A stretch of DNA of 64,000 nt from Clostridia bacterium (GCA_045538455.1 JAZSRL010000009.1:78875-142874); one strand, 5' to 3'. Shown: positions 11,856 to 57,018, numbered from the stretch's first letter. Translations and numbers: made by a program. Notes: generated by a model from the sequence alone, not told the origin.

Positions 11856-12422
11856 TTAGAATTGTGGTATAGCTTCAGATGCTGCTGCAAAAATTGAACC
11901 GATAATATTGAAGACATGGTCGCGGCAAAAATCGAATAAGCGATAAGCAAAGTATCCACCGCTGTCTGCTGTTAAAGATAAGGCTGATTGCCAACCAAAA
12001 GTATTAATTAACATGAAGATTAATGACAACTCGACCAATGCTGCGATGATGCCGAACACAGAACCAAAGATGCGGTCAACAATGTTGATGGCATGCAGCT
12101 TTTCTTTTAGGTGTCTTAGTAGTTTGTCGAGTAAGATACAAACTAAACGAACTAACACAAACACGGCAATCCCGACAATTAATTTTAGAAGTGTTTGCTC
12201 ACTGATAAAGGGAATGTTCCATTTATCTATGGCTGCGTACCAACCAAACTTGCTGTCGAGGAAATTGGCAATGGGTGCCGCAGTTAACATTGCGACGGTA
12301 AATGCTAAGACGGTAGAAAAGCATTTTAATACGCAACGCACAAAACCAAATCTGGTGCAAATTGCAATGTTGATAATAATAATTACCGCAACAATTATGT
12401 CTGCAATTAATCCTGCTTTCAT
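11856..12422 (-). CDS. cvpA: CvpA family membrane protein
   Basis: 188 aa, 4-5 TM helices, N-terminus LIADIIVAVIIIINIAICTRFGFVR typical of CvpA. Confidence 0.65.
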   Translation of the reverse strand: MKAGLIADIIVAVIIIINIAICTRFGFVRCVLKCFSTVLAFTVAMLTAAPIANFLDSKFGWYAAIDKWNIPFISEQTLLKLIVGIAVFVLVRLVCILLDKLLRHLKEKLHAINIVDRIFGSVFGIIAALVELSLIFMLINTFGWQSALSLTADSGGYFAYRLFDFCRDHVFNIIGSIFAAASEAIPQF

Positions 12423-12476
12423 GTGTTTATTATAACTCTGTTTTTTTTATCGTGTCAAGGTGTGGAAAAGTTCGAT

Positions 12477-23842: not shown

Positions 23843-23927
23843 GCGGCCGTGGCGGAATTGGCAGACGCACAGGACTAAGGATCCTGTATCGCGAGATGTG
23901 GAGGTTCAAGCCCTCTCGGCCGCACCA
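23843..23927 (+). tRNA. tRNA-Leu with anticodon AAG (A34), type II long variable arm
   Basis: Acceptor GCGGCCG/CGGCCGC, A73, encoded CCA, anticodon stem CAGGA/TCCTG, loop CUAAGGA (U33, A34 A35 G36, G37), T-arm GGAGG-TTCAAGC-CCTCT. Confidence 0.9.
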
Positions 23928-23965: not shown

Positions 23966-24331
23966 ATGTTTATAAAGAGTGCAGATTTAAAATCTTCTGA
24001 TTATTTAGAATTGCAATATATAAAAAACAATTTAATCTCTGATAAAGAACTATTAAAATTAAAGAGCATTGAACACTTTAAAGAAGATTCGATATTTGTT
24101 AAATCTGATGATATAGACAAGTTTGAAGATAATTATTCTGCTATTTTTGATAGACCTAAAAATCCTGACGGGAGCAACAAGTTTTATCCTTTTGGAATTA
24201 ATCTTTATACCACAGAACAATTAAAAGAAATCTATAATAAATTAAAACAAATTGAAGCAGATTCGGTGCTACTAAATTGGTTGAAATTCGCGGTGGAGAA
24301 AAAGTATAGAATCTATATACTGGGGGTGTAG
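23966..24331 (+). CDS. hypothetical protein
   Basis: 121 aa, AT-rich, normal RBS (AAAAGGGG), followed by a strong terminator. No family recognised. Confidence 0.55.
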   Translation: MFIKSADLKSSDYLELQYIKNNLISDKELLKLKSIEHFKEDSIFVKSDDIDKFEDNYSAIFDRPKNPDGSNKFYPFGINLYTTEQLKEIYNKLKQIEADSVLLNWLKFAVEKKYRIYILGV

Positions 24332-24376
24332 TTTTGATTTAAAAAGACTTTTTGTAGCATTGACAAAATGAATTTA

Positions 24377-24400
24377 AACAACCTGAAAGGTTGTTTTTTT
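24377..24400 (+). terminator. rho-independent terminator
   Basis: AACAACC-TGAAA-GGTTGTT followed by a T-run. Confidence 0.8.
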
Positions 24401-24447
24401 ATGAAAAGTTAAAAAGCAAAATTTGATTTTTTTTTGTGGGGTGGATC

Positions 24448-24477
24448 TTGATTTTTGGGATTTTGCTATTTTATAAT
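24448..24477 (+). promoter_or_regulatory. sigma-70-type promoter of paralog 1 (leaderless geometry)
   Basis: TTGATT-18-TATAAT. ATG 24485 begins 7 nt after the -10. No SD. Confidence 0.6.
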
Positions 24478-24484
24478 ATATGCG

Positions 24485-25387
24485 ATGAAAAAATTGAGTA
24501 AATTATTAAGTCGTCTTTCGAAAATGGGATTGACGCAAGAAGAAAGGGAAGTCTTTAAGACGCTTGACCTTTATGTTGAGGGATTTTTCCCACAAACTGT
24601 TTCTATCTTGACGCGTTTAGAAAAGTTGGGCAACAAGGATATGAAAAACCTCTTAGATATTCGTTTAAAAAAGGACGATGGTTTCAACTTGTTTAATATG
24701 TTTTTCCGTTCGCGTGATGACGCTTGGATGGCTCAATATTTAGCATATTATTATGAGCATAATCAATTTACAGATGGGCAATTTAAAGCTACGGAAGAAA
24801 AAAAAGCTCAACTGCCGTTAAATGCCGTAGAGAAGTATGTTAAATTTGCAACTAAATATAAAGCTTTGCGTGATGAGTTTGAACAAAATATAGTGCGTTC
24901 ATACATTAGTAATTGGGTAACCTATGTTCGTGAAGATGATTTTTACTGCAAAAGTGAACGCAAAAAAGACATGGTTCAATCCGAAAACTTTGACCACCTG
25001 TTCCGTCACAATGTTGTTTCGGCAATGCAGTTTTTGAATATTCCTGATGAAAATATTCAAGCAGGTCTTGAACGCTATAATAATTATTGGCGTGACACTG
25101 CGATGTTATTATCTTTTAAGAATCATTATAAAAAAATGTTTGGCAAAGAATATGATTTTGAAACCCAAAATTTTGATTTAAAAAATTATGAACACAAATG
25201 GATGATTGTTCGTAACAAGGAATATTATAACCTACACAAAGATGCAGTTAATAAATATGGAAAAGTAAATTTAGCCATGAAAATGCCGAAATCAAAAGTT
25301 GCCGAAATACATCGAGATGTTTTAGCTTATGAAGCTTATTTGAAATATGTACAGGAAGCAAAGGAAATCAATTACGAGAATTGTTAA
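24485..25387 (+). CDS. tandem-family paralog 1 of 9 (uncharacterised)
   Basis: 300 aa. Shares blocks RDDAWMAQY, YV-x5-Y-x2-LRDEFE, DDFY, FR-x6-AMQFL, YWRD, F-x-N-x-Y and WMIVRNKEYY with the next eight ORFs. Confidence 0.8.
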   Translation: MKKLSKLLSRLSKMGLTQEEREVFKTLDLYVEGFFPQTVSILTRLEKLGNKDMKNLLDIRLKKDDGFNLFNMFFRSRDDAWMAQYLAYYYEHNQFTDGQFKATEEKKAQLPLNAVEKYVKFATKYKALRDEFEQNIVRSYISNWVTYVREDDFYCKSERKKDMVQSENFDHLFRHNVVSAMQFLNIPDENIQAGLERYNNYWRDTAMLLSFKNHYKKMFGKEYDFETQNFDLKNYEHKWMIVRNKEYYNLHKDAVNKYGKVNLAMKMPKSKVAEIHRDVLAYEAYLKYVQEAKEINYENC

Positions 25388-25406
25388 GAAAAAATCGGTT
25401 TGAATA

Positions 25407-25435
25407 TTGAATTTTAAAGAGAGGAGATATATAAT
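25407..25435 (+). promoter_or_regulatory. promoter of paralog 2 (leaderless geometry)
   Basis: TTGAAT-17-TATAAT. ATG 25441 begins 5 nt after the -10. A GAGGAG lies 14 nt upstream inside the spacer. Confidence 0.55.
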
Positions 25436-25440
25436 ACATT

Positions 25441-26334
25441 ATGAAAAAATTAACTAAATTATCAGAAAACTTTTATCAAATGGGGTTGACTAAGGCTGAA
25501 AAAGCGGATTTCCAAGTTTTAGATACTTTTATGGAAAATTTCTTTCCCAAAATGGACGCTATTGAACAATGCTTAAAAACTTTTTGCGATAATGATATCA
25601 GAAAAGTTTTACAATTGCGCGTACAAAAGAACAAAGATTATAACATGGAAAGTATGATGGTGCAGTCGCAAAATGATAAATGGTTAGCAGATTATTTACA
25701 ATTTTATGTAATGAATAATTTTGTTACCGGTGTTTATCAAAATCCGCAAAGAAATTTTGCAAACAGCTTGACAACTAATGTTGTGAAAAAATATGTACAA
25801 ATCTCGCCTAAGTTTAAAGCAAAGCGCAGTGAATTTGAACAAGCTGTTGTTATGGCTTATATCCAAAATTGGACAGCGAATAACTGTGCTAATGATTTTT
25901 ATTGTAAGCAAGAACAAAAATGGGCAATGAGTTGTTCTGTTGATTTCGACAAGGGTTTCCGCAACAAAGTGAAGAATGCGATGCAATTTTTAAACATTAG
26001 AGATGAATCAATTGAAGCTGGAATCGAGCGCACAGCTCGTTATTGGCGCAAGGACGCTATGAAGTTGGCTTTTCAAAATAATTATAAGAAGACTTTCCGC
26101 AAAGAATATAATTTCAACACAACTGATGCAAAGGCAAAGAGCTATATGAATCAATGGTTGGCTTTGCGTGAACACGAATATTTTAATGAACATAAAGTTT
26201 CAGTTCAAAAATACGGGAGACCAACTAAATCAATGTTAATGAAAGATAAAACTGCGGCATTTATGCGTAAACAACTTGAAAGTTGGGAAGATTATCACGA
26301 AATGGAACTCCGTGGTGTTGAATGTATTTATTGA
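25441..26334 (+). CDS. tandem-family paralog 2 of 9
   Basis: 297 aa. Closest to paralog 1 (MKKLxKL...MGLT...FFP, NAMQFLNI, YWR). Confidence 0.8.
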   Translation: MKKLTKLSENFYQMGLTKAEKADFQVLDTFMENFFPKMDAIEQCLKTFCDNDIRKVLQLRVQKNKDYNMESMMVQSQNDKWLADYLQFYVMNNFVTGVYQNPQRNFANSLTTNVVKKYVQISPKFKAKRSEFEQAVVMAYIQNWTANNCANDFYCKQEQKWAMSCSVDFDKGFRNKVKNAMQFLNIRDESIEAGIERTARYWRKDAMKLAFQNNYKKTFRKEYNFNTTDAKAKSYMNQWLALREHEYFNEHKVSVQKYGRPTKSMLMKDKTAAFMRKQLESWEDYHEMELRGVECIY

Positions 26335-26381
26335 TTTGGTTGTGATGATGAGAAAACTAACGAAAATTGATTTTAAAAAAG

Positions 26382-26407
26382 TAACGGTGAAAATCGTTAT
26401 TTTTTTT
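26382..26407 (+). terminator. weak hairpin plus T8 between paralogs 2 and 3
   Basis: TAACG-N8-CGTTA followed by T8. Confidence 0.4.
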
Positions 26408-26414
26408 GTGTACC

Positions 26415-26444
26415 TTGACTTTGATAAAGTTGAAACGCTATAAT
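26415..26444 (+). promoter_or_regulatory. promoter of paralog 3 (leaderless geometry)
   Basis: TTGACT-18-TATAAT. ATG 26451 begins 6 nt after the -10. Confidence 0.65.
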
Positions 26445-26450
26445 GGGCAA

Positions 26451-27404
26451 ATGAAGTTTAAAAAATTGAAACAGAAGTTCGAAGATATAATGATTAAAGA
26501 TCAAAAAATGCTTACTGATTTCAAGTTTTTAGATCGGTATGTCAGTAGTGTTTTCCCGACGAAAGCAGAGGTCGAAGGGTTGATGTATCATAAAAATTTA
26601 ACTGATAGAAATATGCGTGTTCTTTTGCATGCACGCTCGTTGCCTTTTCACACGCGCGAAGACGAATGGCTGGCTTTGTATTTAGAACAAGCAGTAGCAC
26701 AAATCTTTTTGACTGAACGCGAAGAAGAAAGTAAACGGAGTACTTGTGAGGCTTATGAGCCGATTTTATCGATTGATCAACGAAGCTTTTTACAATATGT
26801 TAAATTATCACCTAAGTTCGAAGCGATGCGTACGCGTTATGAGCATTATTTAGTAAAAGATTATGTTGACAACTGGGTCAAAGGTCAAAGTTATGATTTC
26901 TATTACACAGAAGAAGAGAAGAAAAAGTTTGTGCAAAAAACAAATTATGAAGATGTTTTCCGCGAAAGTGTGATTGATGCGATGGTTGCTTTGGGATTAC
27001 CACAAAAAAGTATTGAAGAAGGATTAGAACTTAGTGCGTCGATTTGGTTGATGCCGGCAATTTGTCGTGGCTTAATGAACGAAAGTGGATTACATTCAGA
27101 TGAGTTTTGTGCTTTACAAAAATATGAACCGGCTGTGGCCAAAGAGTTGTTCAATTCTGAATTTAAAAGTATGGCAGCAGCTGCTCGGTTGCGGGAATAT
27201 AAATATTATTTAAAACATCGTGAAGTGATTGATCGAATGGGTACGGCAACAAAAAACATGAAAATGTCACAGGAGGAAGCGTCGAAATTAGAACAAGTAG
27301 TACGAAGCAATGCCTATAAAAGTGAATGTGTTATGTTTAATCAAATTGCTTGTTCTTTATATGCAAAGGAATTTACCACGGGCTTAGGAAGAAATGGCCT
27401 ATGA
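26451..27404 (+). CDS. tandem-family paralog 3 of 9
   Basis: 317 aa. LPFHTREDEWLALY, YVKLSPKFEAMRTRYE, NYEDVFRESVIDAMVALGL, LREYKYY, TATKNMKM. The WR/F-x-N-x-Y block is degenerate. Confidence 0.8.
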   Translation: MKFKKLKQKFEDIMIKDQKMLTDFKFLDRYVSSVFPTKAEVEGLMYHKNLTDRNMRVLLHARSLPFHTREDEWLALYLEQAVAQIFLTEREEESKRSTCEAYEPILSIDQRSFLQYVKLSPKFEAMRTRYEHYLVKDYVDNWVKGQSYDFYYTEEEKKKFVQKTNYEDVFRESVIDAMVALGLPQKSIEEGLELSASIWLMPAICRGLMNESGLHSDEFCALQKYEPAVAKELFNSEFKSMAAAARLREYKYYLKHREVIDRMGTATKNMKMSQEEASKLEQVVRSNAYKSECVMFNQIACSLYAKEFTTGLGRNGL

Positions 27405-27437
27405 TTTGTGTTGCTCATGAAAATTTCTTTATTAATC

Positions 27438-27467
27438 TTGACTTAGTGGTTTAACAACAATTATAAT
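27438..27467 (+). promoter_or_regulatory. promoter of paralog 4 (leaderless geometry)
   Basis: TTGACT-18-TATAAT. ATG 27474 begins 6 nt after the -10. Confidence 0.65.
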
Positions 27468-27473
27468 AGAAAC

Positions 27474-28418
27474 ATGAATAACATTCCTGATATTGCAGGA
27501 TATTTAAGGGATAAGTATGCTTACTTAAATCTCTCGGATGAGGAATTAAACGCCTTTATCATTATGGACGGGAATCTTGACATATTATTGCCGTCGATTA
27601 GTGATGTAAAGCATCATGTGTTAGCTATTGAAGATATCAAAGCGCGCCGAAAGGAAATCAATACAATTCGTGAATTTCGTGTTCAAGATTTTCCGTTACA
27701 ACTACATGATTCTGAATGGATTAATCAGTACATTATGGAGCGACTAAATTTTTGGGGTCGTGAGATAAAAGGCGATGTTGCCATCAGTCACAAAACGCTG
27801 GGAAATTATTTGGCTCGTTCGAGAGATTTTTGGAAAAAACGCGATGAGTACATTAAAGAAGTTTTGCAAACTTGTTTAAAAACATGTTTGCGTTATAATC
27901 CGGAAAGTAAGTTTTTTGGCGCAATCAAAGAGTATCAATATAACAGTATCAATTATGATAAAGATTTTCGTGCGCATTTCATAAAAGTAGGTGAGTCGTT
28001 GGGGTTATCAGGGTTGGAAGTTGCAAAATTTTTAGAAGACAATGCTAAATCTTGGCGAACAGAAGTACAGATGCATACATTTTCGAATAATTACACAAAG
28101 TACAAACCAAGGGGTTGGGTGAAACATAAACAGCGTCCACCTGAAATGGAAGAAATTGATCAAATTGAAGATAAGCTATATAAAAAATGGATGATGTTGC
28201 GTGAATTTGAATATGAGCGTGAAAACTGGATTCTTTTTAATCGGTTAGGTATAAAACCTAAAATGCAGTTAAAGGATGAAGAAGTTGAAAAATTAAGACA
28301 AGAAGTTGCGTCCCTAGAACACGAGTTCCGTGTGCGAGTCAATTTATATGAGAACTGGGAAAGGCAACCAGAGTTGTTCGGAGTGGAAGATTTAGAACAA
28401 CCAAGTTATGAAAAGTAA
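27474..28418 (+). CDS. tandem-family paralog 4 of 9 (most divergent)
   Basis: 314 aa. Keeps HDSEWINQY, NYDKDFR, SWR, FSNNY and WMMLREFEY but lacks the SPKF and DDFY blocks. Confidence 0.75.
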   Translation: MNNIPDIAGYLRDKYAYLNLSDEELNAFIIMDGNLDILLPSISDVKHHVLAIEDIKARRKEINTIREFRVQDFPLQLHDSEWINQYIMERLNFWGREIKGDVAISHKTLGNYLARSRDFWKKRDEYIKEVLQTCLKTCLRYNPESKFFGAIKEYQYNSINYDKDFRAHFIKVGESLGLSGLEVAKFLEDNAKSWRTEVQMHTFSNNYTKYKPRGWVKHKQRPPEMEEIDQIEDKLYKKWMMLREFEYERENWILFNRLGIKPKMQLKDEEVEKLRQEVASLEHEFRVRVNLYENWERQPELFGVEDLEQPSYEK

Positions 28419-28423
28419 TGGGA

Positions 28424-28429
28424 TATAAT
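28424..28429 (+). promoter_or_regulatory. -10 box of paralog 5 (no convincing -35)
   Basis: TATAAT, with ATG 28435 beginning 5 nt after it. Only 5 nt separate the paralog 4 stop from this box. Confidence 0.4.
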
Positions 28430-28434
28430 TGGTG

Positions 28435-29355
28435 ATGAAACTGAAACAGTTTGTGATGAATTTACAAGTTGGACAAAAATTTGATGCCCAATTTTTAGAT
28501 CGTCACTTAATAGAAATTTTCCCAGATCTTGCTTTTGTTGAAAAAAATATCAAAATGTTGCAGTCGGTTAAAAAAGCGGATGTTTTAAGCGCGGATAAGC
28601 GGATTACATCAGAAGACTTTTTACCCTATTTTGTGCGCGATGATGATTGGTTGGAAGTTTATCTTGGCAGCAAGTTTAAGATACAAAATTTATCATATGA
28701 GACTATTCGTAAATACATTGCTTATTCACCAAAATTTGCAGCGGCTCGTGACCAGTATGAAGAAAACATTGTGCGTTGTTATTTAAATGAATACAAAAAT
28801 TTTAAAAGTGATGATTTTTATGCGGACATGGAAACTAAATATTTTTTGCGTAACAGCATTAATTATGACAAAGTTTTCCGTCATGAAGTGAAATCCGCGA
28901 TGAATAAATTAGGGCTATCTGCAAAAAGCATTGAGTATGCGTTGGAAAAAAATGCGGCATTGTGGCGTGATGAGGTCATGACCGTGGCTTTTTTAAATCG
29001 TTATCCAGATTGTGGGATACGGGATTATGTGCGTCATGGTTATCGCTTTGAAGATGGTTTGATTGAGGAACAAGATAGTAAACCAAATTTTTATGCGGAG
29101 CGTGCATGGTGTCTTTTGCCTTTATCAAAATTATCGGAACAGCAAAAATCTTTATATAATATTTGGAAGTCTTTGCGTGAATTTGAGTATTATCAAGAAA
29201 ACAAAAAAACGGTTGATAAGTTAGGTCTAGCGACACCAAATATGAAAATGAACTTAAAAGAGGCGATATCATTATATTCTAAACTTCAAGCGTTAGAATA
29301 TATCTGTGGGTACAGAAGAAATTATTACAGAAAAGATGAAACTAAAACATTTTAA
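28435..29355 (+). CDS. tandem-family paralog 5 of 9
   Basis: 306 aa. RDDDWLEVY, YIAYSPKFAAARDQYE, DDFY, NYDKVFRHEVKSAMNKLGL, LWRD, LREFEYY, LATPNMKM. Confidence 0.8.
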   Translation: MKLKQFVMNLQVGQKFDAQFLDRHLIEIFPDLAFVEKNIKMLQSVKKADVLSADKRITSEDFLPYFVRDDDWLEVYLGSKFKIQNLSYETIRKYIAYSPKFAAARDQYEENIVRCYLNEYKNFKSDDFYADMETKYFLRNSINYDKVFRHEVKSAMNKLGLSAKSIEYALEKNAALWRDEVMTVAFLNRYPDCGIRDYVRHGYRFEDGLIEEQDSKPNFYAERAWCLLPLSKLSEQQKSLYNIWKSLREFEYYQENKKTVDKLGLATPNMKMNLKEAISLYSKLQALEYICGYRRNYYRKDETKTF

Positions 29356-29368
29356 TTTTGTGTGAATA

Positions 29369-29397
29369 TTGACTTTTGATTTTGGATTGTCTATAAT
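29369..29397 (+). promoter_or_regulatory. promoter of paralog 6 (leaderless geometry)
   Basis: TTGACT-17-TATAAT. ATGATG follows at 29400/29403, and the second ATG begins 5 nt after the -10. Confidence 0.65.
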
Positions 29398-29402
29398 GCA
29401 TG

Positions 29403-30335
29403 ATGCAAATAAAACAGAAGTTAAAAAACAGTTTTAATCATATTCATTTAAAGCTAAATGAAAAAAAATATTTAACAGAATTAGATAAACATTTTGGAGA
29501 TTTTTTCCCAGCAAAGAATTTCGTGATGCAAAATTTAAGTAATTTATCAATGCAAGATCGTAAGTATAAATTTGTTTATAATGTAATTCATTTACCATTC
29601 CACACGCGTGATGTTGAATGGTTGACTAACTACATTATGGACAAAATTCAAAAAACACCGCGGTTATCGGTATTAAGTGATATTCCTTACAATACTTTAA
29701 AACGATATGTAGAAACCTCGTCAAATTTTATTGCGCGCCGTAATCAATATGAAAAAGATTTAGTTTGTGGTTATATCAATAACTGGTTGCATGAATGTTG
29801 TGATGATTATTACTTAAAAGCGGAACAAAAACAAAAATATGAAAAAAAGCGTAACTTTGATGAAGTCTTCCGTGAAAAAGTTGTTAATGCGATTAGTTTA
29901 TTAGGTATCGACAGTTCAATTGTAAATCTTTATTTGGAAGAGAGTGCGCATATGTGGCGTAAGTGTGTGATGCAAAAGACTTTTATGAATCGTTTGCAAA
30001 ATAGTTCGTATTTTAAACAATTTGCGCTGAACGATGACCAACGCATATTATTGTCAAAAAATAATCCGCAGGCTTGGGAAAAATTTGTAAATAAAGAATT
30101 TGATTTTATGAATCTTTGGCTGGCTGTTCGGGAAGTTAAATACTATCAACAAAATAAAAGAGTTGTGGATAAAGCAGGTACCATTACTCCCGCAATGCAG
30201 TTGATTGATTATAAAGTCTATCGTTTAAGAGATGAAAAGAGTTCAATGCGTTTTGAATATATTAAATTATTGAAAGAGGCCGCACAATTAGTTCAAGAAA
30301 TTGAATCACAAAATTACGGGAAAAGTAATATTTAA
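29403..30335 (+). CDS. tandem-family paralog 6 of 9
   Basis: 310 aa. LPFHTRDVEWLTNY, YVETSSNFIARRNQYE, DDYY, NFDEVFR, MWRK, VREVKYY. Confidence 0.8.
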   Translation: MQIKQKLKNSFNHIHLKLNEKKYLTELDKHFGDFFPAKNFVMQNLSNLSMQDRKYKFVYNVIHLPFHTRDVEWLTNYIMDKIQKTPRLSVLSDIPYNTLKRYVETSSNFIARRNQYEKDLVCGYINNWLHECCDDYYLKAEQKQKYEKKRNFDEVFREKVVNAISLLGIDSSIVNLYLEESAHMWRKCVMQKTFMNRLQNSSYFKQFALNDDQRILLSKNNPQAWEKFVNKEFDFMNLWLAVREVKYYQQNKRVVDKAGTITPAMQLIDYKVYRLRDEKSSMRFEYIKLLKEAAQLVQEIESQNYGKSNI

Positions 30336-30363
30336 TTGCCTGAATAAATTTAGGTAGTCTTGT

Positions 30364-30392
30364 TTGACAGAAAAGTTGCGCTCATATATACT
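30364..30392 (+). promoter_or_regulatory. promoter of paralog 7 (leaderless geometry)
   Basis: TTGACA-17-TATACT. ATG 30399 begins 6 nt after the -10. Confidence 0.6.
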
Positions 30393-30398
30393 GCCGCT

Positions 30399-31337
30399 AT
30401 GAAATTGAGTTATACGCAAGATAAGCAATTTCCCCAAACCCATTTAAAGTTCAATGTTTTGTTAGATGAATGCCTAAGAACACTTTTCCCGAATGAAGAG
30501 TACATATTAGATAATCTAAAAAACATCACACGAAAAGATAAATCATATACATTATCCTATAACAAGGGGTATTTAGCTTACCATACCTGTGATACCAATT
30601 GGTTAGCAAAATATTTAGAAATGGCGTATAATCACTTGCAAAGTTTGAAAACAACGCGTTTAAATCCACAAGAACAAACAGCCTTAACAAAAAAAATTCC
30701 ATTTAGTTATATTCGTAATTATGTTGAAACTTCACCAAAGTTTGACGCATTGCGTTCTCAGTATGAACAAAAATTAGTCGGTGCCTATATTCAATTAACC
30801 CAAGATAATAAGAAAGATGATTTTTTTGCCAAGAGTATCGTGAAAATTGCTGATGCTCAGCACCCACAGTATGAGCGTCTTTTGCGTGACCGTTTTGTCG
30901 CGGCGATGCAGCATTTGGGTATGGATAAATTTCGTGCGGAAATAGGAATTGAATTAAATGCGCATTTATGGCGTGATAATGCACGCTTTCAGACTTTCTT
31001 AAATAATTTTCGAAAATATGATATGCGAAATTTGACCGGAAGCAAAGGTTTAATGGCGCGTCATAATACGCCTGTATGGGTTAAGTTAGTTAACATGGGT
31101 GAACAATTATATGAAAAATGGTCGCAGTTAGCTGAATATGATTATTATCAACAACATAGAAGGATTATTGATCAATTAGGTACAGCTAATTCACATATGT
31201 TAATTTCAGAAGATAAAGCGGCGAAATTAGAAAAAGAAGTTGAATCAATGCAATTTACTTTTGAATGTATGTTGTTTGATGCCACACAAAAAATAGAACA
31301 AATAACAAATAAAACCCAAAATGGTATCGAAAAATGA
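30399..31337 (+). CDS. tandem-family paralog 7 of 9
   Basis: 312 aa. CDTNWLAKY, YVETSPKFDALRSQYE, DDFF, LWRD, FLNNF, LAEYDYY. Confidence 0.8.
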   Translation: MKLSYTQDKQFPQTHLKFNVLLDECLRTLFPNEEYILDNLKNITRKDKSYTLSYNKGYLAYHTCDTNWLAKYLEMAYNHLQSLKTTRLNPQEQTALTKKIPFSYIRNYVETSPKFDALRSQYEQKLVGAYIQLTQDNKKDDFFAKSIVKIADAQHPQYERLLRDRFVAAMQHLGMDKFRAEIGIELNAHLWRDNARFQTFLNNFRKYDMRNLTGSKGLMARHNTPVWVKLVNMGEQLYEKWSQLAEYDYYQQHRRIIDQLGTANSHMLISEDKAAKLEKEVESMQFTFECMLFDATQKIEQITNKTQNGIEK

Positions 31338-31356
31338 TAAAGAAATTTAGTGTATA

Positions 31357-31386
31357 TTGACATGGTAGTATGCGTAAAGTTATAAT
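31357..31386 (+). promoter_or_regulatory. promoter of paralog 8 (leaderless geometry)
   Basis: TTGACA-18-TATAAT. ATG 31392 begins 5 nt after the -10. Confidence 0.65.
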
Positions 31387-31391
31387 TGCAT

Positions 31392-32396
31392 ATGAAATTA
31401 AAACATTTTATTATCAAAAATTTGAACCAGACCCAATCAATGGATGAAACCTTAGAACAAAAGCTAACCGCTTTGTTACCTAAAATTTTTCCAGCAGATG
31501 ATTTAAAAAAATTAAAAATGGTTGATAAGATGGACAACCAAATATACACTGCCCAGTATTTACCATTCCATACGCGTGATAATGTGTGGTTAGCAAATTA
31601 TATTGCTAAGTTAGTACATGATTTGCAAGTAAAACCTAGCCGCGATGGAAAAAAATCGTCTTATCGTATGTTGGGCGTAGTCGGTCTTGCTGATGTGATG
31701 CAGTTTATGAAAAATTCGGTTGAATTCACTCAGGCGCGTGATTGTTATGAACAGAATTTAGTTGCGAGTTATATCCCGTTGTTAAGTGATAATACACGCG
31801 ATGATTTCTTTACGGTTGCGGAAGAAAAACGAGCTATTTTAAGTCATAAACACTGTTCAACTTTATTCCGATATCGTATCACAGAAGCAATGCGTTTTTT
31901 AGGTTTACCAGAAGATGTTATTGAGTTGGGAATTGAAAAGAATCGTTCAAAATGGTATGCACGGATGCAAAAACATACTTTTGCGAATTTGTATGAGCAT
32001 GTACCGATGCTGGAACAAAATAGTCAGTATATTTATTCCTATTTACGCAAAGAATTACTTGCATTGGAAAAAGCGAGAGATGAGTTTCAGGTAAACTGGG
32101 AAAAATTAGAAGCTTTAAAATATTATAAAGCACATAAAGCGGCAATTGATAAAGTGGGTGGTGGAGCTTCGTATATGAAAATATCCAAAGGTCAAGCTGT
32201 AAATTTAATGAAAAAAACGAATGCGACTTTCTTGGAGTACAAGCGCTTACTTTTGAATATAATTGGGCAAATTAAACCAGACGATGAAGAAAGTGTTAAC
32301 AGGTACCATGTGAATGGCAAAAACGCGCAAATTAAACTTGCAAATTGTGTTGCCAAAAAGCATGTGCGTGACGCTAATTTAGAACGCGAAAAGTAA
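31392..32396 (+). CDS. tandem-family paralog 8 of 9
   Basis: 334 aa. LPFHTRDNVWLANY, DDFF, LFRYRITEAMRFLGL, FANLY, LEALKYY. Confidence 0.8.
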   Translation: MKLKHFIIKNLNQTQSMDETLEQKLTALLPKIFPADDLKKLKMVDKMDNQIYTAQYLPFHTRDNVWLANYIAKLVHDLQVKPSRDGKKSSYRMLGVVGLADVMQFMKNSVEFTQARDCYEQNLVASYIPLLSDNTRDDFFTVAEEKRAILSHKHCSTLFRYRITEAMRFLGLPEDVIELGIEKNRSKWYARMQKHTFANLYEHVPMLEQNSQYIYSYLRKELLALEKARDEFQVNWEKLEALKYYKAHKAAIDKVGGGASYMKISKGQAVNLMKKTNATFLEYKRLLLNIIGQIKPDDEESVNRYHVNGKNAQIKLANCVAKKHVRDANLEREK

Positions 32397-32433
32397 GAAC
32401 AGTAAAAATTGTGTAACTTTTTTTGTGGTAATA

Positions 32434-32463
32434 TTGACTTTGGGTTGTTTGATTTCTTATAAT
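32434..32463 (+). promoter_or_regulatory. promoter of paralog 9 (leaderless geometry)
   Basis: TTGACT-18-TATAAT. ATG 32469 begins 5 nt after the -10. Confidence 0.65.
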
Positions 32464-32468
32464 TGAAT

Positions 32469-33731
32469 ATGGAAAAATTGAGTCAATTACAAGAAGAAAA
32501 ATTCTCTGTAAATAGTTTAGTTTTAAATAAGGAAGACCAAAATATTTTAGATAGTTATTTGTCATCATTTTTTGCAAGCGAAAAGAATGTTCAACAAGCA
32601 TTAGTTCATTTGAACCGTTTTGAAAGAGATGTGTTGGACAAATATGATGTGAAACATTTGCCGTTTCATACGCGTGATAATAAATGGCTAGTGCAATATA
32701 TTTTGGCTTGCTTAAATGAAGTGCGTTGTATGCAATTTAATGAAAAGGAAAAAGACCCAACTGTGCAGGTTTTGAAATATATAACTCCACAAACGATTGT
32801 GTCATACATTACACAGTCGCCTAATTTTAAGGCACAACGCGCAGAATATGAAGAAAATGTTGTAAAGGCATACATAAAGATTTTAAAAGATGCTAAAATT
32901 GATGATTTTCAAGTGCATGATTATGAGAAACGAATATATCGTAACAAACCGGACTATGATAAAATTTTCCGCATCAAAATTGTAAAAGCAATGCGTTTCT
33001 TGTGTTTTAACGCACGCTCTTACGAACCAGCGATAGAAAAGAACGCAGATTTGTGGCGTGACCAAGTGCGTAGGCAGACTTTTGCCAATATATACCATTT
33101 AAATAAATATCTAGATGAAGAAACTGTAAAAAAGTTGAAATTCTTTGCACCGCGTATGTTCGCTGAAATTAATAATTTATTGGAAGACATTTATCAAACT
33201 TGGGCAGCTGCGCGTGATTATGTTTATTACTGCGAAAACCAAGAAACAATCGATAAATTAAATTTAGCAACACCGAATATGAAAATGTCAGAAGTTGAAT
33301 ACAGAAAAATGAACCGCAAAGTAATGGTGAAAATTGCTCAATACAAAGAAATGGTTGCGAAAGCCAAAAGAAGTGTTTATGGCAAAGCATTGATAAAAGC
33401 AAAAGAGAATTATTGGAATACACATCAACCAGTTTCAAATGGTTTTGACATTGTGGAAATTGATGAAGAAAAGTTAAAATATTGGGACAATCATCAACCA
33501 GTAACCAACGGTCATGATGAAGTTATTGTGGACGAAAAAAAATTACGCTATTGGGATTTTAATCAACCGTTAACCAATGATGGAAAAAATATTCCAGCAA
33601 AAGAAATTAACTATGATTATTGGGATCATCATCAACCACAAACAAGCGACGGTAAACCAGTTTTCAAAAAAAATTACAAGAATCTTAAATATTGGGACCA
33701 ACATCAACCAAATACTTATTTAAGTAAATAA
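32469..33731 (+). CDS. tandem-family paralog 9 of 9 with C-terminal YWDxHQP repeat extension
   Basis: 420 aa. LPFHTRDNKWLVQY, YITQSPNFKAQRAEYE, DDF, IFRIKIVKAMRFL, LWRD, FANIY, LATPNMKM, then five YW(D/N)xxQP repeats. Confidence 0.8.
   Translation: MEKLSQLQEEKFSVNSLVLNKEDQNILDSYLSSFFASEKNVQQALVHLNRFERDVLDKYDVKHLPFHTRDNKWLVQYILACLNEVRCMQFNEKEKDPTVQVLKYITPQTIVSYITQSPNFKAQRAEYEENVVKAYIKILKDAKIDDFQVHDYEKRIYRNKPDYDKIFRIKIVKAMRFLCFNARSYEPAIEKNADLWRDQVRRQTFANIYHLNKYLDEETVKKLKFFAPRMFAEINNLLEDIYQTWAAARDYVYYCENQETIDKLNLATPNMKMSEVEYRKMNRKVMVKIAQYKEMVAKAKRSVYGKALIKAKENYWNTHQPVSNGFDIVEIDEEKLKYWDNHQPVTNGHDEVIVDEKKLRYWDFNQPLTNDGKNIPAKEINYDYWDHHQPQTSDGKPVFKKNYKNLKYWDQHQPNTYLSK
33408..33728 (+). repeat. five in-frame ~20-24-aa repeats (YW[DN]-x-[HN]QP-x-[TS]-x-G) at the C-terminus of paralog 9
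   Basis: NYWNTHQPVSNG, KYWDNHQPVTNG, RYWDFNQPLTNDG, DYWDHHQPQTSDG, KYWDQHQPNTY. The DNA repeats TATTGGGA...CATCAACCA. Confidence 0.8.
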
Positions 33732-33761
33732 CATTATTTTGTTTAGTGCTTGCAACAAAAA

Positions 33762-33791
33762 AAGAACCCTAACAATTAGAGTTCTTTTTTT
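33762..33791. terminator. bidirectional terminator between the array and potCD
   Basis: AAGAAC...GTTCTT hairpin flanked by an A-run and a T-run. Confidence 0.7.
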
Positions 33792-33809
33792 ATGTTTTGC
33801 AAGTTGTGC

Positions 33810-36176
33810 TTATTCATTTTGGGGCAGTGCTATGGTCGTTGGGGCGAAGCGCGGGCGGCGATGTGTTAAGGCGTAAACCAACCACCAAATGAATGCAGCA
33901 ATCGCGAGTAACAAGATGATTATCAAGAAAATGTTTACGCTGCCGTCGTCTTCGGTTAATTGTGCAGCTTTATTTTGAACTTCAACCATCAAATTAGTTA
34001 CGGCTTTTTCTTTTGCTTTGTCGAAGTTTTTCATGACAGCAGCAAAAGTTAAGTTATCTGCGTTTGGGAAGACGGTACAAGCGTAATTAATATCGGGGTT
34101 GAAGATACCTTCTTCATTGTCAGGGATATTGTTTTTTAAATTTTCTGGGACATAGTAGTCGCCGTATTCGATAACTGGGTCGCCATTTTCGTCAAAGATT
34201 TGGTTGCCATCTTCGTCAACTGCATATTCCCAACCCGTCATGTCATCGATAGCTTCACCAGCGGCAACCATTTGGCTACCAACATAGTCGATGTTTGCTG
34301 CTGCGTTTTCGGCGTCTAACATAAAGTTAATGAATTCGTAAGCTGCGTCCAGATTTTTCGCGTAAGTTGGAATAGCAAAGTTATCGGTCCATAAGTTAGT
34401 TCCATTTGGCGCGTAGTAGCGGAGTGGGTTAACATAGTCTTCGTCTTCGGCATTTGCTTCCATTAATTCGTACATCGCTAAGCCGGCATCACAACTCCAG
34501 AATAAACCGTAAGCAAAATCATTATTGTTGGGGTCTACGAAAGATTTTTTACCGTTATCGTTTTCGTAGGTCGGATCCATCGTGGTAATTTGTTCTAACA
34601 GTACCTTGCGCGCGTCATCAATGCTGTAGTCGCCGGTCATGTTGATGATGTCTTGCAATAAACTGTTATCATAGTTTCCAGCATCGTCAAATTGGTCATC
34701 GTTCATATAAACAGCATCATCAATTAATCCGGTGTCATTATTTTCTTTTTGAGCGCTGTAAATCATAGCAATGGCAATCGAGTCACGCGCTGATTTTTTC
34801 ATGGTGATACGGCCTTCAAACTTGTCAGTACCACCTTCACCAAAGAGAACACCAAAACCGTATTGCGTAAGTTTTTCTTCAAACATTTCCACAGAAATAT
34901 GAGTGGTTGCTTCAAGTGAGTCAATAACACGGGTATCATACATAATACCCAAAGTACCAATCATATAAGGAATTGCCCAAGCTTGTTCGGCAACGGGATT
35001 GTTGTTTGCGTCGTAAACGGTGGTAAATGGTTTGGTACGGTCCATGATAGCGGCGTCAAGTTCATCTGTGACGCGGGTCATATCAATGGTTCGGAGTAAA
35101 CCATCTTGTGCCATTTTTTCGACCATGTATTCTGATGGGAAAATTAAATCGTAATCGGCGCGTTGAGTGTTAATTTTGCTGTACAATTCTTCGTTATCGG
35201 CAAAAGTGTGGTATTCGATACGGAATTTATTGGCATTTTTAACTCCGTCTGCTGCTAATTTCTCGCGGTAGTATTCGGTAAAATCATCCAATAATTCGGT
35301 TTCGATATAGTCTTCCCAGTTATAAACTTTTAAGACCATTTCGCGTGGTGTTAAATTGGAAGCAATGACCGGAACAACTCCGGCACCGGTTAATAATAGG
35401 ATGCCCGCTAAAATGCCGGCGACAACTTTTTTATTTAATTTTATGCCTTTGCGGACGCGAGCGGCATTGAAGTTCATCACAACCAAGACCAATAAAATCA
35501 CAACAAAGATAATTGTGGTTAAGGCTTTGAACGCGTCGGGGATATCGCGACGGCTGATGGCTCCGTAAATTACGGTCGAAATGGTTGGAACACCGCTGTT
35601 GTTATATTGTGTGATAACAAAGTCGTCCAAAGACAAGGTGAAGCCTAACAAGAAAGCTTGAATCATGGCTGGGACTAATTGTGGCACAATGACACTGGTA
35701 AAAGCTTTGAATGGGGAAGCGCCCAAATCCAAAGCTGCATCAATTAAGTTCGCATCAAGTTGGCGCATTTTAGGTAAAATGGTTAACAAGCAGAAAGGTA
35801 AGGCAATTAAGATGTGCGCTAATAACAATTTTAACAAGCCGAAGTTAGTTAAGCCCAAGCTAACAAATAATAACACTAAACTAAATGAAGTAACGATATC
35901 GGCGTTAATAACCGGTAATTGGTTCACCGCCATGGTAACAGCACGGGTGCGTTTGCCTAAATACAAAATTCCAGTCGCAGCCATGGAAGCAATAATTGTC
36001 GCAATCAACGAAGCGACCACGGCAATTAACAAAGTATTACCGATAGCGGTCATATATTCTGATGTTGTAAACAATTCAACATAGAATTCTAACCCGTTAC
36101 TAAATGATAAGTAGATGAGTAAAAGAATTGGTAAATAAACAATTGCCGCTACGGCTAAGATTAATGTCATTCCCAT
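33810..36176 (-). CDS. potCD: fused spermidine/putrescine ABC permease PotC and substrate-binding PotD-like domain, with C-terminal TM anchor
   Basis: N-terminal ~260 aa form a 6-TM permease with the DAALDLGASPFKAF EAA loop. Then comes a TM segment, then LKVYNWEDYIE and a PotD-like periplasmic domain, then the final TM NIFLIIILLLAIAAFIWWLVYAL. Confidence 0.8.
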   Translation of the reverse strand: MGMTLILAVAAIVYLPILLLIYLSFSNGLEFYVELFTTSEYMTAIGNTLLIAVVASLIATIIASMAATGILYLGKRTRAVTMAVNQLPVINADIVTSFSLVLLFVSLGLTNFGLLKLLLAHILIALPFCLLTILPKMRQLDANLIDAALDLGASPFKAFTSVIVPQLVPAMIQAFLLGFTLSLDDFVITQYNNSGVPTISTVIYGAISRRDIPDAFKALTTIIFVVILLVLVVMNFNAARVRKGIKLNKKVVAGILAGILLLTGAGVVPVIASNLTPREMVLKVYNWEDYIETELLDDFTEYYREKLAADGVKNANKFRIEYHTFADNEELYSKINTQRADYDLIFPSEYMVEKMAQDGLLRTIDMTRVTDELDAAIMDRTKPFTTVYDANNNPVAEQAWAIPYMIGTLGIMYDTRVIDSLEATTHISVEMFEEKLTQYGFGVLFGEGGTDKFEGRITMKKSARDSIAIAMIYSAQKENNDTGLIDDAVYMNDDQFDDAGNYDNSLLQDIINMTGDYSIDDARKVLLEQITTMDPTYENDNGKKSFVDPNNNDFAYGLFWSCDAGLAMYELMEANAEDEDYVNPLRYYAPNGTNLWTDNFAIPTYAKNLDAAYEFINFMLDAENAAANIDYVGSQMVAAGEAIDDMTGWEYAVDEDGNQIFDENGDPVIEYGDYYVPENLKNNIPDNEEGIFNPDINYACTVFPNADNLTFAAVMKNFDKAKEKAVTNLMVEVQNKAAQLTEDDGSVNIFLIIILLLAIAAFIWWLVYALTHRRPRFAPTTIALPQNE

Positions 36177-55355: not shown

Positions 55356-55832
55356 ATGAAACATTTTTTCCAAAATGCATTTACCAAAATAAAGAATTAT
55401 TTTACGGCTAATACTGGTCGTAAAATTTTCTTTTTTGGTGGTTTGGTGGCTACGCTTGGTTTAATCGTTTTGGCAACGCTGCATTTAAGCTTGCCGCATC
55501 TGCGAGACCATTCACTTTATTTTGCATTGCGTGAATTGAGAGTTGGTGTTTGGTATCTTACATTAATTAGTTTGGTTGTGGCGGGTGTTGGTACTTTATG
55601 GGATAGTATGTACACGCGTTATTTATTTTTAAAAAAAGTCCGTGATATGCAATACAACCATTTAAAAGAAATTTACGAAAAGCAAGATGCCGGGGAAGCG
55701 GTGGAAATGACTTCGACATTTAGCGAAGACGAAAAAAAATACATACGCCGCCGCAAGTTGGGATTTATCGGCATAATTATTTTTAAGGTAGCTGCGGTTA
55801 TTGCGTTGTTTTCCTTGCTATTAGGGTTGTAA
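55356..55832 (+). CDS. hypothetical membrane protein
   Basis: 158 aa, 3 TM helices. Confidence 0.55.
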   Translation: MKHFFQNAFTKIKNYFTANTGRKIFFFGGLVATLGLIVLATLHLSLPHLRDHSLYFALRELRVGVWYLTLISLVVAGVGTLWDSMYTRYLFLKKVRDMQYNHLKEIYEKQDAGEAVEMTSTFSEDEKKYIRRRKLGFIGIIIFKVAAVIALFSLLLGL

Positions 55833-55851
55833 ATAAGGTATAATAATCCTT

Positions 55852-57018
55852 ATGGATAAAAAAGTAACAAAACAACAAAATCAAGCTACGGTCGAAATGA
55901 CCTTCAACAAAGCAGAATGGGATGCAGCCATTGAGAGTGCTTACAAAAAGAATGCCGGAAAATACAAAGTTGCCGGTTTCCGTGCTGGTAAAGCTCCACG
56001 CAAAATGGTAGAACAACAATACGGTGCTGGTATCTTCATCGAAGATGCAATTCAAGATTTATTTGCCGCTAATTTTGGTGACGAATTAAAGTTGATTGAC
56101 TATCCACATTTGGATTTTAATTTTACCGAAGATGGTGGGATTAAATTAGTTGCAAAGTGTGATGTTGAACCAGAAGTTACCTTGGGAAAATACACTGGTT
56201 TGGAAATTAAGAAAACTGAAGTGAAAGTTGGCACCAAAGATGTTGATGCTTACTTGAAGCGCTTACAAGAAACACGCGCGAAGCAAGTCGCAGCAGACAA
56301 AGAACACGCTGTTGCCGATGGAGATATTGCGGTGATTGATTTCCGTGGTAGTGTCGATGGTAAATATTTTGACGGTGGTACCGCAAAGAATTATGAATTA
56401 GAAATTGGCAGCCACAGTTTCATTGATAATTTTGAAGAACAATTAATTGGTTTGAAAATTGGAGAAAGCCGTGATGTGAATGTCACTTTCCCAGCGACTT
56501 ATCATGTAGAAGATTTGAAAAACGCAAAAGCAAAATTTGAAGTAACTTTGAACAATATCATGGTTAAAGAAATGCCAAAGTTAGATGATGAATTTGCGAA
56601 AGAAGTTTCTGAATTTGACAGCTTACAAGCTTTGAAAGATGACATCTTGAAAAAATTAACCGACCAAGCAACAAAGCAAGCAGAATACGCGGACGAAGAA
56701 AAATTGTTTGAAGCAATTATGGATAACGCAAAAGTGGAAATTCCTGACAAAATGATTCACGACTATGCTCATGCCATGATTCACGACATGGAACACAAGT
56801 TGGCGGCACAAGGTGCAAGCTTGGAAATCTATGCGCAATACATGGGAACAACGGTGGAAAAAATTCACGATGAACAACATCAAATTGCGGCAAAGCAAGT
56901 GAAGATGCGTTTGGTGATGGATGCGATTGTCGAAAAAGAACAATTGTCCGACAAAGACCGACAAAAACAATTTGAGAATTTGACTATATTCTTAAAAAGG
57001 GAGAACAAAATATGCTAG
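55852..57018 (+). CDS. tig: trigger factor (short, 388 aa)
   Basis: [20 protein letters not shown], an FKBP-like middle ([15 protein letters not shown]), and position upstream of clpP-clpX. Confidence 0.9.

What the first reader, a model, noticed from the sequence alone, without database searches (positions are those of the whole stretch)
24448..32471. Every gene of the array has its ATG 5-7 nt after a TATAAT box and lacks a Shine-Dalgarno: nine apparently leaderless mRNAs in a row
Read directly, each entry gives the -35, the spacer, the -10 and the distance to the ATG. P1 is TTGATT-18-TATAAT-7 nt-ATG. P2 is TTGAAT-17-TATAAT-5. P3 is TTGACT-18-TATAAT-6. P4 is TTGACT-18-TATAAT-6. P5 is TATAAT-5 with no good -35. 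P6 is TTGACT-17-TATAAT-5 (second ATG of ATGATG). P7 is TTGACA-17-TATACT-6. P8 is TTGACA-18-TATAAT-5. P9 is TTGACT-18-TATAAT-5. Bacterial transcription normally starts about 6-8 nt after the -10, so initiation should fall at or within a nucleotide or two of the A of each ATG. There is no room for an SD. Other genes in the window use canonical GGAG/GGAGG sites, including the ORF at 23966 immediately upstream, degV, clpX and tsaB. The geometry is therefore specific to this family. It implies each paralog is transcribed independently and translated by the leaderless (70S-type) initiation route.
Basis: partly seen in the sequence, partly recalled or inferred. Interest (0 to 1): 0.75.

Follow-up and report, generated by a model that had tools for sequence, protein, structure and literature searches.

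The report
Nine leaderless-type paralog genes in row
Nine tandem copies of an uncharacterised gene each carry a near-perfect promoter pressed against the start codon, so they are probably made as leaderless mRNAs, but about a fifth of the other genes in this bacterium have the same layout, so it is a trait of the organism and not of this gene family.

Summary
All nine paralogs (ATGs at 24485, 25441, 26451, 27474, 28435, 29403, 30399, 31392, 32469) have a -10 hexamer 5-7 nt before the ATG. Eight also have a TTGAnn -35 at 17-18 nt, and none has a Shine-Dalgarno (SD) site at working distance. The pattern TTGA-N19-20-TATAAT-N5-7-ATG occurs 9 times in the window against 0.05 expected.

The geometry is kept in five other lineages, with protein identity down to about 25-30%. 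There, 30 of 35 family genes have it although the spacer sequences differ, so it is under selection. Leaderless, gene-by-gene expression is the best reading. It remains inferred, because no 5' ends are mapped.

The claim that the geometry is specific to this family fails. Eleven of 56 other genes in the window show it: tig, parB, both degV genes, tsaE, tilS, rpiB, ybaB, a cvpA-like gene, a phosphodiesterase and a hydrolase. At tsaE it is conserved in a relative. The organism looks like a mixed SD/leaderless genome (GeneMarkS-2 "group C"), which is uncommon in Firmicutes.

Gene 2 keeps a GGAG 12-14 nt upstream and may also be SD-led. The proteins are an unannotated all-helical family with no structural match. 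They sit in a low-GC island between tRNA-Leu and the pot operon.

The parts
24448..25387 (+). Unit 1: -35 TTGATT 24448-24453, -10 TATAAT 24472-24477, ATG 24485, 300-aa paralog
   Evidence: The same geometry with a different 7-nt discriminator is found in L007.
25407..26334 (+). Unit 2: -35 TTGAAT 25407-25412, -10 TATAAT 25430-25435, ATG 25441, 297-aa paralog. GGAG lies in the spacer, 14 nt before the ATG.
   Evidence: In L009 and L007 the hexamers decay but GGAG is kept, so this gene may be dual or SD-led.
26415..27404 (+). Unit 3: -35 TTGACT 26415-26420, -10 TATAAT 26439-26444, ATG 26451, 317-aa paralog
   Evidence: This unit replaces a different gene seen in L009.
27438..28418 (+). Unit 4: -35 TTGACT 27438-27443, -10 TATAAT 27462-27467, ATG 27474, 314-aa paralog
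28424..29355 (+). Unit 5: -10 TATAAT 28424-28429 only (no -35), ATG 28435, 306-aa paralog. The ATG lies 16 nt after the stop of gene 4.
   Evidence: The L007 ortholog has a full TTGACG-17-TACACT-5-ATG promoter.
29369..30335 (+). Unit 6: -35 TTGACT 29369-29374, -10 TATAAT 29392-29397, ATG 29403 (second of ATGATG), 310-aa paralog
   Evidence: The ATGATG is conserved in L007 and L009.
30364..31337 (+). Unit 7: -35 TTGACA 30364-30369, -10 TATACT 30387-30392, ATG 30399, 312-aa paralog
   Evidence: Public gene calls wrongly start at TTG 30360.
31357..32396 (+). Unit 8: -35 TTGACA 31357-31362, -10 TATAAT 31381-31386 (12/12 consensus), ATG 31392, 334-aa paralog
32434..33731 (+). Unit 9: -35 TTGACT 32434-32439, -10 TATAAT 32458-32463, ATG 32469, 420-aa paralog with C-terminal YWDxHQP repeats
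24376..24403 (+). Intrinsic terminator-like hairpin plus T-run that closes off the unit upstream of the array
26375..26406 (+). Hairpin flanked by an A-tract and a T-tract after gene 2. It is the only convincing internal terminator in the array.
33757..33791 (.). Bidirectional terminator-like hairpin between gene 9 and the convergent potCD gene
23843..23927 (+). tRNA-Leu(aag) bordering the low-GC island that holds the array
   Evidence: The same tRNA lies upstream of the array in L014.
55815..55854 (+). Non-array example of the same geometry: trigger factor, TTGCTA-18-TATAAT-7-ATG(55852)
12420..12458 (-). Non-array example: CvpA-like gene, TTGACA-18-TATAAT-6-ATG(12422), 12/12 consensus

Best explanation
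The region is a tandem array of nine diverged paralogs (19-41% identity) of an unannotated, all-helical, about 300-aa cytoplasmic protein family. Each copy was duplicated together with its own housekeeping (sigma-70/sigma-A type) promoter.

The -10 hexamer ends 5-7 nt before the ATG, so RNA polymerase should start at or within 1-2 nt of the A of the ATG. That would give mRNAs with a 5'-terminal AUG and no SD, which are translated by the leaderless route (direct binding of a ribosome carrying initiator tRNA to the 5' AUG).

Only three terminator-like hairpins exist: before gene 1, after gene 2 and after gene 9. Read-through therefore probably produces nested transcripts. Internal AUGs on those transcripts lack an SD, so each protein's output should depend mainly on its own promoter.

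This layout is not a speciality of the family. It is the way this organism and its relatives (uncultured ruminant-gut Clostridia MAGs) express a sizeable share of first-in-unit genes, with SD sites used for the remaining genes, including most genes internal to operons. That matches the GeneMarkS-2 'group C' type of genome.

Shown: the sequence geometry, its statistical excess, the start-codon assignment, conservation across lineages, and the same geometry at housekeeping genes. Inferred: the actual transcription start sites, promoter activity and the mode of ribosome recruitment.
For: - Geometry and excess: (9 composite matches against 0.05 expected).
- No SD 4-mer at 3-13 nt before any of the nine ATGs. 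In-frame stops lie inside the -10 in 5 of 9 genes, and no downstream SD-preceded start exists within the first ~40 codons of any gene.
- Family-wide MKLK/MKKLSK N-termini that begin at profile position 1.
- Conservation: across six non-redundant lineages (the window plus five others), 30 of 35 family genes have a promoter of 9/12 or better with the -10 at 5-8 nt from the start (5: 12 genes, 6: 7, 7: 10, 8: 1). This holds although spacer and discriminator sequences differ and proteins are only 25-67% identical.
- Organism-level trait: 11 of 56 non-array genes have TAnnnT 5-7 nt before an SD-less ATG, against a 5.7% background. Of the 24 genes with no SD 4-mer, 10 have it (p = 3e-7).
- The tsaE geometry and the geometry of the 207-aa gene are conserved in L017 and L014.
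- Two divergent gene pairs have only 16 and 38 bp between their start codons, which leaves no room for leaders.
- Literature: a Pribnow box 6-8 nt from the start is the accepted signature of bacterial leaderless genes. Group C genomes have 25-50% leaderless operons and make up 3.4% of Firmicutes (PMC6028130). TAnnnT 'TA-led' genes are reported in 56 of 209 Firmicutes genomes (PMC3160421).
Against: - No transcriptome, 5'-end or proteomic data exist for this uncultured organism, so promoter use and start sites are inferred from consensus geometry only.
- Gene 2 keeps a GGAG 12-14 nt upstream in all three closest lineages while its hexamers decay. Gene 5 lacks a -35. The count of nine leaderless genes is probably eight or fewer strictly leaderless ones.
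- The first 40 nt of the mRNAs are not significantly less structured than internal windows (p = 0.1).
- My starts for some non-array genes were chosen by inspection. The 11/56 figure therefore carries some selection bias, although tig, parB, degV, tsaE, rpiB and cvpA are fixed by Pfam/NCBIfam alignment to the first residues.
Confidence: 0.78

Rival explanations
1. Family-specific leaderless regulon. The abutting promoter is a special adaptation of this paralog family, for example to couple its expression to conditions that favour leaderless translation, and sets it apart from the rest of the genome.
For: 9 of 9 array genes have the geometry, against about 20% of other genes. The array promoters are unusually close to consensus: 10-12 of 12 in 8 of 9 genes, whereas most other leaderless-type genes score 8-10. 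The geometry persists in the family across six non-redundant lineages.
Against: Housekeeping genes in the same window share the geometry: tig, parB, tsaE, tilS, rpiB, ybaB, two degV genes and a cvpA-like gene. tsaE keeps it in a related species. The nine copies are not independent events, because each duplication carried its promoter along. Some family members elsewhere are SD-led (L015 gene 2, L016 gene 3).
Confidence: 0.12
2. One or a few long leadered polycistronic transcripts. On this reading the promoter-like hexamers are inactive or minor, and the internal ATGs are translated by SD-independent loading (A/U-rich, S1-dependent) or by re-initiation after termination.
For: Convincing terminators exist only before gene 1, after gene 2 and after gene 9. 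Gene 5 starts 16 nt after the stop of gene 4 and has no -35. Gene 2 keeps a distant GGAG.
Against: Full -35/-10 pairs with 17-18 nt spacing are conserved at a fixed 5-7 nt from the ATG in lineages whose surrounding sequence has diverged. Selection on the hexamers, their spacing and their distance to the ATG is what a used promoter predicts, not an A/U-rich loading pad. Most intergenic gaps of 47-153 nt are too long for coupling.
Confidence: 0.07
3. Chance product of AT-rich intergenic DNA.
For: The array is AT-rich (31-35% GC). The generic promoter scan finds no more promoter-like sites than in shuffles (50 against 46).
Against: The composite pattern anchored on the ATG occurs 9 times against 0.05 expected. 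Eight of the 15 best-scoring ATGs among 2351 are array starts. The geometry is conserved in other species.
Confidence: 0.01

Closest known systems
Bacterial leaderless ('TA-led') genes as modelled by GeneMarkS-2 group C and by Zheng et al. 2011 (Mycobacterium, Streptomyces, Corynebacterium, Deinococcus)
   Same: The Pribnow box lies 6-8 nt from the start codon, there is no SD, and the genes are first in their transcription units. SD sites are used for the remaining genes, including those internal to operons. About a fifth of all genes, or a quarter to a half of units, are affected (PMC6028130, PMC3160421).
   Different: The host here is a low-GC (about 40%) Clostridia-class MAG, a phylum in which only 3.4% of genomes were put in group C. 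The promoters have strong, near-consensus -35 boxes and full TATAAT, not the bare TAnnnT of high-GC Actinobacteria. Nine consecutive monocistronic paralogs share the layout.
Classical single leaderless mRNAs: lambda cI from PRM, Tn1721 tetR (own knowledge of the literature, not tested here)
   Same: Transcription starts at the A of the AUG. Translation depends on the 5'-terminal AUG and not on an SD.
   Different: Those are isolated regulatory genes of mobile elements in SD-dominated hosts. Here the mode is shared by housekeeping genes and by a whole gene array.
Tandem paralog arrays of small-genome Firmicutes and Mollicutes (own knowledge)
   Same: A tandem array of diverged paralogs in a low-GC island at a conserved chromosomal site, with copy number varying between relatives (4 to 10 genes).
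   Different: These proteins have no signal peptide or lipobox. There are no phase-variable repeats in the promoters, no Pfam, NCBIfam, PHROG or PADLOC family and no structural neighbour.

Membership tests
Bacterial leaderless (TA-led) genes | -10/Pribnow hexamer (TAnnnT) about 6-8 nt upstream of the start codon | tested here: met
   9 of 9 genes have the hexamer at 5-7 nt.
Bacterial leaderless (TA-led) genes | No Shine-Dalgarno sequence at functional distance upstream of the start | tested here: met
   No 4-mer of AAGGAGGTG lies 3-13 nt before any of the nine ATGs. Caveat: gene 2 has GGAG at 14 nt, and this is conserved in relatives.
Bacterial leaderless (TA-led) genes | AUG (or GUG) start codon that would lie at the 5' end of the transcript | tested here: met
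   All nine starts are ATG. An in-frame stop lies inside the -10 in 5 of 9 genes. The N-termini are conserved family-wide.
Bacterial leaderless (TA-led) genes | Mapped transcription start at, or no more than about 5 nt from, the start codon | not testable with these tools
   No transcriptome or 5'-end data are available for this uncultured organism.
Bacterial leaderless (TA-led) genes | SD-independent translation from the 5'-terminal AUG | not testable with these tools
   This needs toeprinting, reporter assays or N-terminal proteomics.
Sigma-70/sigma-A housekeeping promoters | TTGACA-like -35 and TATAAT-like -10 separated by 16-19 nt | tested here: met
   8 of 9 genes score 10-12 of 12 with spacers of 17-18 nt. 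Gene 5 has the -10 only.
GeneMarkS-2 'group C' genome (mixed leaderless and SD) | A substantial fraction of first-in-operon genes with a -10 at 6-8 nt, and SD sites at the other genes | tested here: inconclusive
   Within 64 kb, 11 of 56 non-array genes are leaderless-type and 31 are SD-type. The whole genome was not available and GeneMarkS-2 was not run.
SD-led polycistronic operon | An SD before each cistron, short or overlapping intergenic gaps, and a single upstream promoter | tested here: not met
   No SD at any gene, gaps of 16-153 nt, and a promoter before each gene.
Any annotated protein family, defence system or phage family | A significant profile or fold match | tested here: not met
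   Pfam, NCBIfam, PHROGs and PADLOC gave nothing above threshold. Foldseek against PDB and BFVD gave no hit with E < 1 for a model with pLDDT 86.9. There was no tblastn hit in phage or plasmid records.

The most novel reading that the evidence does not exclude
The leaderless-only layout works as an insulation device. Read-through transcripts carry internal AUGs without an SD, so each of the 4-10 paralogs is translated only from its own 5'-AUG transcript. That would allow strictly promoter-by-promoter (possibly condition-specific or heterogeneous) expression of an orphan-fold protein family. The family is kept in a tRNA-Leu-adjacent, low-GC island of a leaderless-rich lineage of gut Clostridia.
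Probability: 0.15. Interest if true: 0.6.

Novelty: new member of a known kind. Interest (0 to 1): 0.35.

Why it matters
Leaderless expression is well documented in Actinobacteria, Deinococcus and archaea but is rare and little studied in Firmicutes. This window suggests an uncultured ruminant-gut Clostridia lineage in which a fifth or more of genes, including tig, parB and tsaE, use it.

The paralog array is a compact natural series of about nine promoter/5'-AUG junctions, with discriminators of 5, 6 and 7 nt and different sequences. Such a series would be useful for testing start-site selection and leaderless translation in a low-GC background.

There is also a practical consequence. Public gene calls for these loci put several starts at spurious upstream TTG or GTG codons. 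The MAG annotations of this clade would benefit from a leaderless-aware gene finder.

The protein family has about 346 clusters at 50% identity, no annotation and no structural neighbour, and is an open functional question.

Tried and rejected
- Alignment-based scans of genome contigs with A1 and A2 failed because no stretch was conserved enough. A3 found only the known MAG plus L014. The metagenome scan with A4 gave only two short contigs.
- The word-indexed protein search found only 3-4 relatives. The exhaustive profile search was needed to show a real family of 346 clusters.
- Function of the family: Pfam, NCBIfam, PHROGs, PADLOC, Foldseek against PDB and BFVD, and tblastn against phages and plasmids were all negative. 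cluster-member look-up gave no names or taxa.
- The test for unusually unstructured 5' ends was not significant.
- Tandem repeats or phase-variation tracts in the promoters: none found.
- Rfam gave only three tRNAs and no riboswitch or sRNA in the array.
- The composite promoter+ATG inside gltX (16970-17009) was rejected as a gene start, because the ATG is followed directly by a stop.
- A literature search for arrays of leaderless paralogs found nothing relevant.
Full report
**What is there**

The interval holds nine same-strand ORFs of 297-420 aa that are paralogs of one another. They are 19-41% identical, with 12 invariant columns and motifs such as LPFHTRDxxWL, R..YE, DDFY and TPNMKM. The array is 31-35% GC, against 40-44% in the flanks. 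It lies between a D-Ala-D-Ala carboxypeptidase gene plus tRNA-Leu(aag) (23843-23927) and a convergent potA-potB-potCD operon.

**Check of the observation**

- The ATGs are at 24485, 25441, 26451, 27474, 28435, 29403, 30399, 31392 and 32469.
- The -10 is TATAAT in eight genes and TATACT in gene 7. It ends 5-7 nt before the ATG.
- Eight genes have a TTGAnn -35 at 17-18 nt. Gene 5 has none.

TATAAT-N5-7-ATG occurs 11 times in the window against 3.7 +/- 1.8 in shuffles. The composite TTGA-N19-20-TATAAT-N5-7-ATG occurs 9 times against 0.05. When every ATG on both strands is scored for a -35/-10 pair ending 4-9 nt upstream, 15 of 2351 reach 10/12, and eight of those are array starts.

None of the nine ATGs has a 4-mer of AAGGAGGTG at 3-13 nt. 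In five genes the TAA inside TATAAT is an in-frame stop three codons upstream, and no gene has a downstream SD-preceded start within about its first 40 codons. The N-termini MKLKQ.., MKKLSKL.. recur in about 150 representatives of the family, most of which align from profile position 1 at residue 1.

**Conservation**

Exact-protein look-ups and pattern scans brought in the same locus from other lineages:
- L001, the same species;
- L008/L009, from the MAG GCA_017537405.1 ('Clostridia bacterium', water-buffalo cecum), about 90% identical;
- L007, from GCA_045538225.1, about 67% identical, with 8 genes;
- L014, from MAG RGIG8633 (water-deer cecum), about 30% identical, with 4 genes;
- L017/L018, with family genes flagged by Pfam-less calls, nine of them scored;
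- two short metagenome contigs, L015 and L016.

The array sits at the same place in all long loci, after dacA/tRNA-Leu and before the pot operon. Across six non-redundant lineages, 30 of 35 family genes have a promoter of 9/12 or better whose -10 ends 5-8 nt before the start (5 nt: 12 genes; 6 nt: 7; 7 nt: 10; 8 nt: 1). Spacers are 17 or 18 nt in 29 of the 30.

The spacer and discriminator sequences differ between orthologs. For gene 1 the discriminator is ATATGCG in the window and ATGGACT in L007. The ortholog of gene 5 in L007 has a complete TTGACG-17-TACACT-5-ATG promoter. What is conserved is therefore the hexamers and their distances, which is what selection on a used promoter abutting the start codon would produce.

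The exceptions are informative:
- Gene 2 loses its hexamers in L009 and L007 but keeps GGAG 12-14 nt upstream in all three lineages.
- L015 gene 2 and L016 gene 3 have ordinary SD sites.
- One L017 gene starts with GTG 8 nt after TATAAT.

**Is it specific to the family?**

No. I curated starts for the 56 other genes in the window. Thirty-two have an SD 4-mer. Of the 24 without one, 10 have TAnnnT 5-7 nt before the ATG, against 5.7% of 2289 background ATGs (binomial p = 3e-7). Trigger factor makes 11.

Profile matches that begin at residue 2-4 fix several of these starts. The genes are:
- Tig: TTGCTA-18-TATAAT-7-ATG at 55852;
- a CvpA-like protein: TTGACA-18-TATAAT-6-ATG at 12422, minus strand;
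- ParB at 12990;
- two DegV proteins: ATG 7168 on the plus strand and ATG 50083 on the minus strand;
- TsaE at 38887;
- TilS at 61233;
- RpiB at 46399;
- YbaB at 16120;
- a phosphodiesterase, ATG 9959 on the minus strand;
- an alpha/beta hydrolase at 40908.

The tsaE geometry is retained in L017 with a different hexamer and discriminator, and the geometry of the 207-aa gene at 21904 is retained in L014 and L017. Two divergent gene pairs have only 16 bp (recA/43849) and 38 bp (21865/21904) between their start codons, which leaves no room for leaders.

This is the picture described for GeneMarkS-2 'group C' genomes: a Pribnow box 6-8 nt from the start of leaderless first genes, SD sites elsewhere, 25-50% of operons affected, and only 3.4% of Firmicutes genomes in the group (PMC6028130). 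TA-led genes were also reported in 56 of 209 Firmicutes (PMC3160421).

**Mechanism**

Best-supported model (confidence about 0.78): each paralog is a separate transcription unit driven by a near-consensus housekeeping promoter.
- Initiation 5-7 nt after the -10 puts +1 on or next to the A of the ATG.
- The resulting 5'-AUG mRNA is translated without an SD.
- Only three terminator-like hairpins exist: 24376-24403, 26375-26406 and 33757-33791.
- Read-through probably gives nested transcripts. Their internal AUGs lack an SD, so each protein should depend mainly on its own promoter.
- Gene 2 may additionally be read from the gene 1 transcript through its conserved distant GGAG.
- Gene 5 (a -10 only, with its ATG 16 nt after the preceding stop) may rely on a weak promoter or on re-initiation.

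The geometry, its excess, the start codons and the conservation are shown. Start sites, promoter activity and the 70S route are inferred. A test for unstructured 5' ends was not significant.

**The proteins**

There is no Pfam, NCBIfam, PHROG or PADLOC match. The exhaustive profile search finds 346 clusters at 50% identity, all unnamed metagenomic sequences.

AlphaFold2 with the nine paralogs as the alignment gives a confident all-alpha model of 15 helices (pLDDT 86.9, pTM 0.84). It has no Foldseek neighbour in PDB or BFVD at E < 1. There are no homologs in phage or plasmid records. The function is unknown. The proteins lack signal peptides and look cytoplasmic.

Copy number (4-10) and content vary between relatives. 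The window's gene 3 replaces a different, SD-led 185-aa gene whose first 38 nt survive at 26344-26381.

**Verdict**

Family specificity is refuted and replaced by an organism- or clade-level trait. This is a new example of a known kind of gene organisation in an unusual phylum, attached to an orphan protein family. It is of moderate interest.

Noticed in passing
window 23843-23927 and 24000-33800; L014 about 9800-9900: tRNA-Leu(aag) lies directly upstream of the low-GC (31-35%) array. The same tRNA and the same flanks (dacA upstream, potA-B-CD downstream) border the array in relatives. This is a conserved tRNA-adjacent island, and no integrase is present.
   Followed up: partly
window 23966-24331: A 121-aa ORF with no family match, preceded by AAAGGGG, is present in the window, L008, L009 and L012. 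It is absent from the otherwise near-identical L001, so it is an indel between close strains.
   Followed up: partly
window 26344-26381; L009 5018-5575: The intergenic DNA before gene 3 contains the first ~38 nt of a different gene (ATGATGAGAAAACTAACG...). In L009 that gene is intact, SD-led and 185 aa long. This indicates cassette replacement within the array.
   Followed up: partly
window 43832/43849 and 21865/21904: Two divergent gene pairs have only 16 bp (recA and a 536-aa membrane protein) and 38 bp between their start codons. Their promoters must lie inside the opposite coding region, and leaders must be close to zero.
   Followed up: partly
window 9959(-), 50083(-), 61233(+), and near 2790: TAAGCT recurs as the -10-like hexamer 6-7 nt before SD-less ATGs of three housekeeping genes. 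It may be a preferred -10 variant in this organism.
   Followed up: no
window 16970-17009: A full TTGAAA-18-TATAAT-7-ATG composite lies inside gltX, out of frame, and its ATG is followed immediately by a stop. It is either a chance match or an internal promoter.
   Followed up: partly
window about 33420-33731: Gene 9 ends in about five YWDxHQP(x)T(N/S)(D)G repeats. The last gene of the L007 array (415 aa) and of the L017 array (465 aa) is similarly extended.
   Followed up: no
window 33810-36176 (-): A fused PotC permease and PotD binding protein of 788 aa. Its best NCBIfam match is the Mycoplasma-type MMSYN1_0195 model, though below that model's cut-off.
   Followed up: no
window 30360, 24455, 26406; L001 8811; L014 9815: Mechanical and public gene calls place several array starts at upstream TTG, GTG or ATG codons, and one call fuses gene 3 to an overlapping frame. 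This is the typical mis-annotation of SD-less genes.
   Followed up: yes
L017 8944: One family gene in a related lineage appears to start with GTG, 8 nt after a 12/12 consensus promoter. It is a possible leaderless GUG start in a Firmicute.
   Followed up: no
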